Source: Lama guanicoe (Eukaryota). Taken from it: a DNA stretch of 64,000 nucleotides. Below, piece by piece: positions 21,564 to 53,864 of this stretch. A program made the position numbers and the translations under genes. Position 1 is the first letter of the stretch; every line of letters begins with the position of its first letter. The notes beneath the pieces were generated by a model. The model ran no database searches. It was not told the origin of the DNA and saw only the letters and a program-made list of their open reading frames with translations. The stretch covers positions 6,575,693 to 6,639,692 of the forward strand of contig MU055549.1 of the NCBI GenBank assembly GCA_013239625.1, read 5' to 3'.

Positions 21564-21621
21564 ATGGCCCTTGTGGATAAGCACAAAGTCAAGCGACAGC
21601 GGTTGGACAGAATTTGTGAAG
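21564..21621 (+). CDS. CTBP2: CtBP2-L specific first coding exon (MALVDKHKVKRQRLDRICE-G), includes NLS KVKRQR; exon starts at about 21462 with 102 nt of 5'UTR
   Basis: Translation matches the known CtBP2 N-terminus. Acceptor ttttctccttgtttcAG at 21460-21461. Donor GAAG|GTAAGA, phase 1 (58 nt). Confidence 0.97.
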
Positions 21622-22619
21622 GTAAGAGCCAGCGTGATTGGCGGTTTTTAACCAAAGACGCGGAGCCCCGACCTCGAGGCCTCCACCTGCCGACCTGTGG
21701 GGACCAGCCCCCAGCCAGGCTCTGTACCACAGCCCACCCTCCAGCCAGAGGCCCCCCTCCCCCGGCACCTCTCACCCTCTGCCTTGGTGCGGTCAGCAGG
21801 CCTGGCCTTCGGGTAGGCTGAGGTGGCTTCCAGGGTAGGGGTGGGGCTAGGAGGGAAGTTGGGGAGGGGGCAGGCCCTGAGGCCCATTTTCCATCCTGAG
21901 ATCACTTTGCATATGAAAGACACTGCCTATTAGGACCATCTTTTTTTACTTCCTGAAGTTCCTGGACTTTTATCTGTTTCAAATTAAAAGGTTTACAATC
22001 ATGAATTCCAAGGTATTCCTGAAGAGCCCAGCAGAGTCCCTGGTGATGTGTTCACATCCCTGGTATCTTTGAAAATATCTGGAAGTGTTTTATTCATGAA
22101 AGGAAAAATAAACATAATTAAAATCTAATGGAAACATGGGGACAAAACTCTGAAATGTTGATTAAGCACCATCCTCTCCTAATTAGGGAGAGGCAGGACA
22201 TCCTGAGTGTGGACCTGGCCTTCGCGTGAAGTGCTCCTTGCCCAGCCTGAGTCTGTGCTGCCTGGCTGGGCTCGGCGCAGCATGGTGTCCGGTGACTTCA
22301 TCGCAGGGTTCACCACAGAGGCCGTGGAGGGGAGCCCCTGGGCCGGGGGAGGCCAGCAGCCCCCTCCAGTCCCCCAAATGTGCTGGCACACAGCCAGCTC
22401 ACTCGGGCACGGAAATCTGTATCCACAAGCTGTCCATGTGGACTTGTTGGTCCTTTAGCCGCGGCTCAAGCTTCGTGGGGTGAAGGCATCAGAGGCGTGT
22501 TCTCCTGTGTGTCGGGGTGCCCTGCAACAGCTCCATGCTAAAAGAATTTAAGAGCACTGACTGTCCCCCCACATCCCTGGGGTTCTGCTGCAGTGTAAGG
22601 GGTTTGGGATTTAAGGTTT

Positions 22620-23130
22620 TTTTTTTTTAACATTGATAGAATGGTACAATGGACACTGATATTTTGTTCAGCTGTATTTACCAGTTGATAACATTTGCTA
22701 TCATTTGCTTTCTTTTTATAGATACGTAAGTAATGTGTGTGTGAATGGATGGTGGATGGATTTTTTTTCAGAACCACCTGAAAGAAAGCTGTAGATGCAG
22801 CAGTTTACTCTTAAGTATGTATGGCATGTGTTAAAGGATCCTTTCCTACAGAAACACACCACCTTGGTCACCCCCAGGGGCCTGGACCCCATTACAACAC
22901 TAACATAGATGGCGTATTCACCTCTCCCCCACGCTTCTGTGTTTAGCCGCTTTGTTTGCTTGTGCAGAAACTGATAAAGGGACATAATGTGGCGTTTAGT
23001 TGTCGTGGCTCTTTGGTCTCCTTAGTCTAAAATAATTTCCCTTTTGACTTTCAGAAGTATTGACACTACGGAGCCAAGCCAGCTGGTCTACCCGTGTCCC
23101 ACAGTCTGGGTTCACCTGAGTGTTTGGGGG
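22620..23130 (-). mobile_element. Old L1 (L1MC-like) 3' fragment
   Basis: taccagttgataacatttgc...gaaccacctgaaagaaagctgtaga...tttagttgtcgtggctctttggtctcctt resembles L1MC 3'UTR. Confidence 0.5.
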
Positions 23131-50800: not shown

Positions 50801-53709
50801 TTTATAGAAGCGAACCTTGGCATTGGCTGGCTAAGCTGTCAGCCTCAGTGCTGGGGTCTCATGCGGCCCCTCAGAGCCCGTCCTCAGCAGCCTTACACTG
50901 TGGTCTCTGCCCCTCATGCAAGACACCTGTGAGTCTCGTCTGCTCCCACCCCCCACCCACCCATCTGTCCCCACTCAACATCCTTCTCCAGCCCGAGCAG
51001 CCCGAGCAGCATGATCCCTGCCACATCTCGTTTCCTGCCTCACCATAAAGAGCTTGCAGTCAGTACCCAAGCCTAGGGCCTCTGTGGGGAAGCCTGTGGG
51101 TCTCGTGGACCGGCCTCAGCGGCGTTCTGCGTGCCCAGCCAGAACGAGGGCAAAGGGTGGGTTTCGCCAAAGAAAAAGGAGACCCAAGTCGGGGAGGGAG
51201 GCAATCGCTAGGCAACCTGGAGTTTGTTTCCCAGGTAACGGGATGCGTGCGTTGATGCTGTGGATGGACATGTTGTGGTGACGGCCCCTCCGCTTCTCCA
51301 GATGCCTGCCTTGTGCCCACTGTCGTTTTCCTCTGTGGTTGCTTTTTAATTAACAACTCAGATTTCTATTCGTGGTCGTGAACTTTGCAAACATTGTCTG
51401 ATTAACCCTCTTGCTAGGACCCCCAGGAGTGAAGTCAGGGTGTTCTTCACCCTGTGGGAGGGACAGCCTGGGGCAAGTGAGTGTGTCTGCCCACACGGTC
51501 ACCTTGGGCTTCATAGTGGGTGTGGGGAGAGGAGGAAGACTCTGGTGGAGAGAACGGGTCCTTCATGGTCATCGTGGCAGAAGGGGAAGAAGTAGGAGCT
51601 CCCGTGTGTGGACACTGAGTTGGCACCCGCCGCCCCACTTGGCAGCCTCTTCCTCCTGTGAAGTACTTCCCACCTTATTCCTCTGCTTCCTTGTCTGTTG
51701 AAGAGGATGGTGGTGTTTTCTCGTGGTGAAGTGAGGGGGCGTAGGGCTCCATGTGAAGTGGCTGCTCACCCACTTCCTGTGCCGGGGGCTTGGGCAGGGG
51801 GGCTCCAGGGGTCCTGTCTGAAGACGTCACCCTTGGTCTTTGGGGAGCCTTTTCCCCAGTTGCACACAGCACTTCAGCCTCTCGTGGACCTGTCAGTTGG
51901 GCAGAGGGGTGCTAGCAAGGGACCCCAGTAAGCAAACAGCCTTGATGCCACGTTCCTCGCCTTCTGTGTGGGTTGAGAACTAGTGAGGACATTGGGTAGA
52001 GGAGCCCTATTCCTGCTCGGACAGAGGATGTTGGGGCTCCCTGTCACCTGGAGTCCCCAGTTTGGGGACCCGGGTCCTGAGGAGGCAGTAGGAGTTCAGC
52101 TGCCACTCTCAGGCTTGGAGGGACTGTCATCACCTGCGAGCCCCAGCCCAGAGGTGGCCTGCTCCCCCCAGCCACCGTTGCCCGTTCTTCTGAGACCAGG
52201 ACAAAAGCCTTTTCTCTGCTCCGCATTCAAAGAGATGATTGTCCCACGATGCTGCAGCTGAGTCGCGGGAGTGCCGCTCCGGGCAGCGGGCGTGCGGGTG
52301 CCCAGGGGCCTCCCCCTCCGCGGGCATCGCTAATGGAAACATGCCCACAGGTCCAGACTGGGGGTGGGGGGGATGGGGGTCCCTCTTTCAGCTTCTGTCC
52401 CCAGTGTGTGGCTGACTGGGTTGTGAACTCGGGCAGTTCTGGGCTGGGAGGCGGAGGCCCCGCAGATGAGCAGCCGGGTTATCAGCTCCTCTTTGGCCCG
52501 TGGGAGCCCAATCAAGCCTGGGGGCCACGGCGGCCACCAGAGAAGAGGACGAGTAGGTTCCATGCGGGAGGAAGGACACAAGATGGGCCGAGCCCCGCCC
52601 TGGTACAGTGGCCACGATCAGGGTGTATTTGAACATCTGACAGCTGTCCTGTTCTGACTTGTAATTTGTGACGTCAGAGACACTTCTGATTCGATGAGAA
52701 AATGGGAGTTGCCCTGTCCCGTCCAATTCAGTGTTGCACTGTCTCCAAAAGTCCAGGGTGGTTCTCACGTGCCCAGGGTGTGGATCATGGTGATTCGACA
52801 TTGGGGCCAAAATCTGAGACCTTCCAGTGTGAACTTGAAAGGAATGGTTTTCTTAGAAAATGCTGCTTCCCTGTCACCGAGGATGAGCAGCCTGGGGCTC
52901 AGGCTGCTTCTGGGCCCCTGTGCGCACCTCGAGGTGGGTCCACGTGTCAGGGCAGACGCGCTGCCCTCCTCATTTGGGCTGGGGACCTCGCAGCCACGCT
53001 GTCTGCACTGAGGTGCCGCCCCCCCCCCACCCAGAACTAGACATGAACCGCCCCTGGCTGGTCTCGGTAGCTGACAAGTGGTGCTAGTCGTGGTCCTTTG
53101 AGAACTTCCATTTGCTCTTTGAGGCCCCAGCAAGCCCCTTGCCCTCAGACACACTCGCCTTCACAGCTGCCTCAGACTGGCTCCTCACCTGGCCCAGGTG
53201 AGGGGCGCCTGGTCCCCAGGGGTTTCCTCCAGGGAGCCCCCGTGGAATGCTGCCACCTTCTCTTGTCCCTGCCTTTTCATTTTAGCCCCTCGTGCTTGTC
53301 TGGAGGGCAGTGGGGACAGCTGGGGACGGAGGCACAGTGGTGGGGCCGAGAGGAGCCTGCTTCGGCTTCAGGCAGCCGTGGACCAGGCCCCCTCGGGTGC
53401 CTGCAAGGTCTCTGGGCCTTAGTGGTCTCGGGGCGGGCGGGTGGCCACCGTGCTGCCCTGGTGGCAAGAGCAGTTGGGCGCGATGGGACTCCTGGGCCTG
53501 AGTCCCAGATGGCAGCGGAGCTAGAACCCCAGCACTTCCCGGTGGGCTGCATGTGTGGCCACGTAGGGAGGCCCAGCAGACAGCACCTTAGCCTCGTCCC
53601 AGAGCCCTCCCAGGAGGGAGGCGTGTGGTTGGCGGGGTGGCAGTACCTCACTGCAGGTGAGGGGACAGTCCACTCTGCACACCCACCGCTTCCTCCTTCC
53701 TCCTCACAG

Positions 53710-53864
53710 GTATCCGCCCCCAGATCATGAACGGCCCCCTGCACCCCCGCCCCCTGGTGGCGCTGCTCGACGGCAGAGACTGCACCGTAGAGATGCCAAT
53801 CCTGAAGGACCTGGCCACCGTGGCCTTCTGTGACGCACAGTCCACCCAGGAGATCCACGAGAAG
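53710..53864 (+). CDS. CTBP2: CTBP2 shared exon ([51 protein letters not shown]); substrate-binding domain / PXDLS cleft; contains Met 53727, the start of the NLS-less short isoform
   Basis: Pyrimidine tract + cAG at 53708-53709; donor AAG|GTGGGC; 155 nt; translation matches CtBP family. Confidence 0.97.

What the first reader, a model, noticed from the sequence alone, without database searches (positions are those of the whole stretch)
21564..53729. Array of phase-1 alternative first exons converging on one acceptor (modular N-terminus system)
The two established N-termini (CtBP2-L, RIBEYE) both end in phase-1 donors and splice to 53710. Three more open frames end in a phase-1 donor in the intervening intron (donors after 39623, 47871, 51234). 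The locus may therefore work as a variable-first-exon / constant-region gene that attaches different targeting peptides to one NAD(H)-sensing core. Met 53727 gives a leaderless fallback. Phase 1 arises by chance for a third of donors, so each candidate needs evidence.
Basis: partly seen in the sequence, partly recalled or inferred. Interest (0 to 1): 0.7.

Follow-up and report, generated by a model that had tools for sequence, protein, structure and literature searches.

The report
CTBP2/RIBEYE: known isoforms, chance extra donors
This is the ordinary mammalian CTBP2 gene, whose three known protein forms (nuclear CtBP2-L, synaptic RIBEYE, short CtBP2-S) share one core, and the three extra start exons proposed inside its intron are most likely chance sequence.

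Summary
The window holds camelid CTBP2 (its RIBEYE domain differs from alpaca records at 3 of 557 residues). The real parts are published: CtBP2-L, RIBEYE, and CtBP2-S from Met26. The CtBP2-L exon (21462-21621) has its own strong acceptor, so it is an internal exon; the CpG-island promoter lies about 85 kb before the window. The three new candidates look like chance. Two (39623, 51234) have no in-frame ATG, so their phase is undefined. By a fixed rule the introns hold 20 phase-1 donor-like sites, against 16 in phase 0, 15 in phase 2 and 17 antisense; 47871 scores too low to be among them. None of 266 database N-termini maps to any candidate. A phase-1 intron sits at this place in CTBP1 and in invertebrate-like CtBP loci, so any ATG-bearing exon joined there must end in phase 1. 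RNA junctions and cross-species DNA conservation were not tested, so a minor real exon is not excluded. The scan held no note on CTBP2; it had noted similar proposed arrays in other genes.

The parts
21462..21621 (+). CtBP2-L first coding exon: an internal exon (102 nt of 5' leader, ATG 21564, 19 codons plus one base, with the basic KVKRQR nuclear signal); phase-1 donor
   Evidence: Sequence and translation; acceptor strength; same N-terminus class in 76 of 266 database proteins with the junction motif; exon 3, skipped in CtBP2-S mRNA, per PMC2995425
33578..35249 (+). RIBEYE A-domain coding part of the single large alternative first exon (557 codons plus one base); phase-1 donor; transcription start not mapped here
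   Evidence: Open frame; 3 of 557 differences from alpaca records, 13-14 from Camelus records; own promoter per PMC3382178, PMC8793361, PMC12014503
39302..39623 (+). Candidate 1: 107-codon stop-free frame without ATG before a strong donor (6 of 7); likely chance, at best a non-coding leader exon
   Evidence: one of 2 sense G|GTRAGT sites in the scanned introns; 3 antisense; no relative among 1.84 billion representatives but one unrelated repeat protein at E 4e-4; single copy
47829..47871 (+). Candidate 2: the only one with an in-frame ATG; 14 codons; weak start context, weak donor (4 of 7), out-of-frame ATG in strong context at 47849; likely chance
   Evidence: 0 of 37 candidates at E<=10 among longer proteins (weak test); single copy
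51015..51234 (+). Candidate 3: 73-codon stop-free frame without ATG before a donor of 5 of 7; likely chance
   Evidence: Atlas best score 0.76, below its lead level; single copy
53710..53864 (+). First shared (constant) exon; phase-1 acceptor
   Evidence: same acceptor phase in the CTBP1 paralog
53727..53729 (+). Met26 of CtBP2-L, start codon of CtBP2-S
   Evidence: Position from sequence; use shown by ATG mutation in human cells, PMC2995425; 420-aa database proteins begin here
54213..63583 (+). Further constant exons of the dehydrogenase-fold core (approximate match limits 54213-54371, 59235-59453, 61928-62206, 62760-62915, 63446-63583); the gene runs on past the window
   Evidence: Own-genome search with a database CtBP2 protein, converted to window coordinates; translations

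Best explanation
This is the camelid CTBP2 locus with two real coding 5' exons (CtBP2-L and RIBEYE) and an internal start at Met26, and the three extra donors are most likely unused intronic look-alikes. A CpG-island promoter about 85 kb before the window would drive non-coding exons into the internal exon 21462-21621, adding a nuclear signal (CtBP2-L). Skipping that exon, or scanning past its ATG, gives CtBP2-S from Met 53727. A second promoter in ribbon-synapse cells gives the RIBEYE exon. Shown here: the exons, frames, acceptors and the upstream CpG island. Taken from papers on human, mouse, rat and chick: the splicing, promoter use and localisation. Inferred: that the camelid does the same, and that the three candidates are not used. 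Convergence in phase 1 is forced by an old phase-1 intron in front of the core.
For: Chance-level census with phase and strand controls. No ATG in two candidates; weak start, weak donor and a competing strong out-of-frame ATG in the third. As in-frame cassettes they also fail: none of the 4 acceptors found inside their open frames gives a length divisible by 3. Of 266 database proteins with the junction motif, 76 were CtBP2-L type, 97 RIBEYE-derived, 8 partial and 85 other; no 'other' N-terminus mapped to a candidate by tblastn at E<=1e-3, and at most 3 of the last 8 residues matched. The candidates are single-copy in the genome, so not a duplicated exon family. Phase-1 acceptor in CTBP1 and in 19 of 24 metagenome loci with a pyrimidine-rich acceptor, out of 73 examined. 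Three isoforms named as the known set. Met26 use shown by mutation.
Against: No RNA junction was seen for any exon, real or candidate: no reads were laid. DNA conservation of the candidates in other mammals was not tested. The protein survey saw 120 of 1780 and 120 of 1286 hits and at most 15 members of each of 10 clusters; it showed no non-RIBEYE alpaca isoform, and one alpaca RIBEYE record is labelled X2 with its X1 unseen. Long open phase-1 frames are about 3 SD above a shuffle null in 35260-53690. The 39623 donor is strong and in GC-rich DNA (CpG o/e 0.61). Other vertebrates have further annotated N-termini at this junction (fish MWRQHFPG in 5 records of at least 4 species, dog and fox, primates), so extra exons are possible in principle. 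The donor score is a simple consensus count, not a trained model.
Confidence: 0.85

Rival explanations
1. One candidate, most plausibly 39623, is a real but non-coding alternative first exon from an intronic promoter or enhancer; spliced to 53710 it would give CtBP2-S from Met 53727, and its phase would not matter.
For: Strong donor (6 of 7; one of 2 such sense sites); local GC 0.69 and CpG o/e 0.61; no ATG open to the donor in 39200-39623, as a clean leader would need; CtBP2-S has its own localisation in neurons.
Against: 3 equally strong sites on the antisense strand; CpG o/e no higher than round the internal exon at 21621 (0.61) and below the true promoter (0.72-0.87); no transcript evidence.
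Confidence: 0.09
2. The 47829-47871 exon is a real coding first exon that gives a 14-residue basic/hydrophobic leader on the CtBP2 core (or one of the ATG-less frames starts at a CUG/GUG).
For: In-frame ATG open to a GT donor; short alternative N-termini are annotated at this junction in fish; GTG codons in fair context exist in the 51234 frame.
Against: Donor 4 of 7, with 66 comparable phase-1 sites on the sense strand and 65 antisense; C at -3 of the ATG and a strong out-of-frame ATG 20 nt later; no database match.
Confidence: 0.05
3. The locus is a true variable-first-exon cluster of five modules.
For: Two real phase-1 coding exons share one acceptor.
Against: The L exon is internal; the exons are unrelated and single-copy; no phase-1 excess.
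Confidence: 0.01

Closest known systems
Mammalian CTBP2 locus: CtBP2-L, CtBP2-S, RIBEYE (PMC2995425, PMC3382178, PMC12014503, PMC8793361: passages read; PMC9907507: passages and section 16 read)
   Same: It is the orthologue: same L N-terminus, RIBEYE A-domain 3 of 557 residues from alpaca records, same Met26, same shared core.
   Different: Nothing shown to differ. The three extra exons are not in the passages read and not in the database proteins seen.
CTBP1 (CtBP1-L, CtBP1-S/BARS)
   Same: Paralog in the same genome with a phase-1 acceptor at the same place; two N-termini by alternative 5' splicing.
   Different: No RIBEYE-type exon and no KVKRQR signal.
Variable-first-exon clusters UGT1, GCNT2, PCDH (PMC1885805, passages read); PLEC1 and NOS1 are named there as related multi-first-exon genes
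   Same: Alternative 5' coding exons in one reading phase spliced to constant exons; RIBEYE has its own promoter.
   Different: Only two coding 5' exons, unrelated to each other, one of them internal; no tandem duplicated exons; no third module shown.

Membership tests
CTBP2/RIBEYE orthologue | Short coding exon with the basic KVKRQR signal joined in phase to the core | tested here: met
CTBP2/RIBEYE orthologue | Single large A-domain exon of about 550-620 residues starting MPVPS | tested here: met
   557 codons; range and motif from PMC9907507 section 16; 3 differences from alpaca records
CTBP2/RIBEYE orthologue | Met26 in the first shared exon as start of CtBP2-S | tested here: met
   ATG 53727 is codon 26 of the L frame; its use in camelids was not tested
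CTBP2/RIBEYE orthologue | Shared dehydrogenase-fold core exons (PF00389, PF02826) | tested here: met
CTBP2/RIBEYE orthologue | Ribbon-cell-specific RIBEYE promoter; ubiquitous upstream promoter | not tested
   Upstream CpG island found; expression not examined
Variable-first-exon cluster (UGT1/GCNT2/PCDH type) | Tandem array of similar, duplicated variable exons | tested here: not met
   Each candidate region matches only itself in the genome; L and RIBEYE exons are 19 and 557 codons with no likeness seen
Variable-first-exon cluster (UGT1/GCNT2/PCDH type) | Each variable exon is a first exon with its own promoter | tested here: not met
   The L exon has a strong acceptor and is exon 3 in human mRNA; promoters of the candidates not tested
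Variable-first-exon cluster (UGT1/GCNT2/PCDH type) | Each variable exon carries its own start codon in the common frame | tested here: not met
   2 of 3 candidates have no in-frame ATG
Variable-first-exon cluster (UGT1/GCNT2/PCDH type) | Each variable exon is spliced to the constant region in mRNA | tested here: inconclusive
   No reads were laid; database proteins show L and RIBEYE joins only
Variable-first-exon cluster (UGT1/GCNT2/PCDH type) | Variable exons conserved across species | tested here: inconclusive
   Met for L and RIBEYE; no protein-level relative for the candidates, DNA-level conservation not tested

The most novel reading that the evidence does not exclude
One intronic site is a real, unannotated CTBP2 first exon in camelids: either a non-coding leader at 39623 that makes CtBP2-S from its own promoter, or the 47829-47871 exon that adds a new 14-residue N-terminus to the core.
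Probability: 0.14. Interest if true: 0.3.

Novelty: already known. Interest (0 to 1): 0.08.

Why it matters
As it stands it matters little: the isoform system of CTBP2 is published. If a further promoter or N-terminus were real, it would give a way to make signal-less or differently targeted CtBP2 independently of the main promoter, of modest interest to synapse and transcription specialists. The practical lesson is for the scan: a donor without a start codon has no phase, and 30 kb of GC-rich intron holds about 20 such look-alikes per phase and strand.

Tried and rejected
Metagenome contigs as a source of mammalian spliced 5' ends or orthologous introns: 73 loci, best match 98% and most 72-95%, none identified as mammalian; used only for intron phase. 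Retrocopies as fossil mRNA junctions: the shared exon matches only itself and CTBP1. Candidates as repeat-derived or duplicated exons: single matches (that search skips very common words). Tandem repeats in 21000-54000: 2 trivial arrays. Candidates as in-frame cassette exons: rejected. Two fish N-termini scored p<0.02 against the 39623 frame but map by tblastn to the RIBEYE exon; I read this as composition bias. The single hit of the 39623 frame among representatives is an unrelated repeat protein. A long N-terminus annotated in macaque, two seals and a whale (MWGCV...) maps to the far-upstream promoter exon, but in this genome it is split over three frames with stops: rejected as a conserved coding module. 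A dromedary N-terminus maps to 53509-53711 but is split over three frames here: rejected. Verger et al. 2006 was not held and is known only through citing papers. Four literature searches listed no paper on further CTBP2 first exons; only listings were seen for most, the library lacks most subscription journals, and no supplements were read (PMC9907507 fig. S12 may bear on N-terminal variety).

Full report
Identity. The window is mammalian CTBP2. The exon at 53710 translates to the start of the CtBP2 core and finds 1780 relatives at E<=0.001, of which 120 were listed. The 557-codon frame from ATG 33578 differs from alpaca RIBEYE records at 3 positions and from Camelus records at 13-14, so the genome is a camelid close to alpaca. 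Further core exons follow to the end of the window.

Observation. All five donors are GT, the acceptor is strong and ATG 53727 is codon 26 of the L frame. The frames before 39623 and 51234 are open for 107 and 73 codons but hold no ATG. Only 47871 has an in-frame ATG (47829, 14 codons). Its context has C at -3 and A at +4, an out-of-frame ATG with A at -3 and G at +4 follows at 47849, and its donor matches 4 of 7 consensus positions. The consensus and start-context rules are recalled, not from a call.

Chance. I scored every GT in 21700-33400 and 35260-53690 by the same rule. At 5 of 7 or better there are 85 sense donors; those with a frame open for 70 codons or an ATG 10 codons upstream number 16, 20 and 15 in phases 0, 1 and 2. 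The antisense strand has 74 donors and 16, 17 and 22. At 4 of 7, which admits 47871, phase 1 has 66 of 284 sense and 65 of 255 antisense donors. Binomial tests for a phase-1 excess give p 0.13-0.23 on the sense strand and 0.067 antisense. Against this, long open phase-1 frames in the second interval number 10, against 3.8 +/- 2.0 in 100 Markov shuffles and 3 antisense; the phase control does not make this specific to phase 1. The 39623 donor is one of 2 sense G|GTRAGT sites, with 3 antisense.

The L exon is internal. It has an acceptor at 21462 nearly as pyrimidine-rich as that at 53710 (0.89 and 0.94), giving a 160-nt exon. PMC2995425 (passages read) calls it exon 3, cloned an mRNA that skips it, and showed by mutating each ATG that codon 26 starts CtBP2-S from the L mRNA as well. 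Two points do not fit neatly: that paper's two products differ by 100 bp, not 160, and PMC1592084 (passages) calls it a short exon 1. A database protein whose N-terminus comes from 5' leader sequence maps to C5617:6490655 onward, about 85 kb before the window, in a CpG island with o/e 0.72-0.87. I take this as the main promoter.

Database N-termini. I cut the sequence before the junction motif from 266 of the 275 proteins fetched: 76 L type, 97 RIBEYE-derived, 8 partial, 85 other (4 of the 85 were misfiled: three fish RIBEYE-type and one motif misfire). None of the others mapped to a candidate by tblastn at E<=1e-3, and at most 3 of the last 8 residues agreed. Many of them look like read-through of the intron before the acceptor in DNA contigs. 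Some recur: a 7-residue N-terminus in 5 fish records, a canid one, a primate one, and a roughly 280-residue RIBEYE-like form in teleosts; PMC9907507 section 16 describes teleost forms of about 300 residues. Direct searches with the candidate frames found nothing related (47871: 0 of 37 candidates; 39623: one unrelated repeat protein; 51234: best Atlas score 0.76). These are weak tests for short peptides, and the survey is partial.

Why everything is phase 1. The paralog CTBP1 has a phase-1 acceptor at the same place. Of 73 metagenome loci, 27 show a basic N-terminus in frame (spliced or intronless), 24 show a pyrimidine-rich acceptor (19 phase 1, 4 phase 2, 1 phase 0), 15 have no strong acceptor, 5 end too near and 2 lack the motif. 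Three of the four phase-2 calls also have a phase-1 AG at the usual place. Many loci are near relatives, so these are not independent counts, and their organisms are not identified. The intron is therefore likely old, and any ATG-bearing exon joined directly to the core has to end in phase 1. Agreement of phase between L and RIBEYE is a requirement, not a sign of a larger array.

Mechanism. Shown in sequence: two coding 5' exons, one internal, one large, and Met26. From papers (passages read): L carries the nuclear signal and is nuclear, S lacks it and reaches synapses, and RIBEYE comes from its own promoter in ribbon-synapse cells; PMC12014503 states that three isoforms are known. PMC9907507 notes that a role as NAD(H) sensor is disputed. 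Inferred: the camelid behaves likewise and the three candidates are unused.

Comparison. It is the CTBP2 orthologue on every feature tested. It works like a small alternative-promoter gene, but fails membership of the UGT1/GCNT2/PCDH clusters as described in PMC1885805 (passages): no tandem similar exons, one exon internal, two candidates without ATG.

Limits. The scan's notes held nothing near this place and nothing on CTBP2.

Verdict. Already known; extra exons unsupported. Interest 0.08; chance that one candidate is a real minor exon about 0.14.

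Noticed in passing
L074:2156-2474 (G000:C5617, about 85 kb before the window): CpG-island exon of CTBP2 with a conserved ATG (MWGCV...). Macaque, seal and whale models translate it into a 170-residue N-terminus, but here it is split over three frames with stops around a poly-A run; likely an upstream ORF in conserved leader sequence.
   Followed up: partly
window 53509-53709: An ATG frame just before the shared acceptor is annotated as an N-terminus in dromedary (P0061, P0259) but is frameshifted in this genome; a donor of 6 of 7 lies at 53656, too near the acceptor to be convincing.
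   Followed up: partly
window 21478: An out-of-frame ATG in the leader part of the CtBP2-L exon opens a 9-codon upstream ORF, which could affect the choice between Met1 and Met26.
   Followed up: no
P0016, P0074, P0125, P0209, P0008-type records: Short alternative N-termini before the core recur in fish CtBP2 records (MWRQHFPG in distant ray-finned fishes; MELSVS... in two clusters), better candidates for real conserved first exons than those proposed here.
   Followed up: no
L003-L063 (metagenome loci): Invertebrate-like CtBP sequences often carry a KRPR-type basic motif just before the core, like the CtBP2-L signal, suggesting that a short basic exon plus phase-1 intron is the ancestral layout.
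   Followed up: partly
P0232 and teleost records: Shortened RIBEYE-type forms join the core early (154 residues in a bat model, about 230-290 in teleosts); no donor of 5 of 7 or better lies at the matching places in this genome's RIBEYE exon.
   Followed up: partly
P0255: The alpaca RIBEYE record is labelled isoform X2 in its newer version; the X1 model was not seen.
   Followed up: no
   Followed up: no
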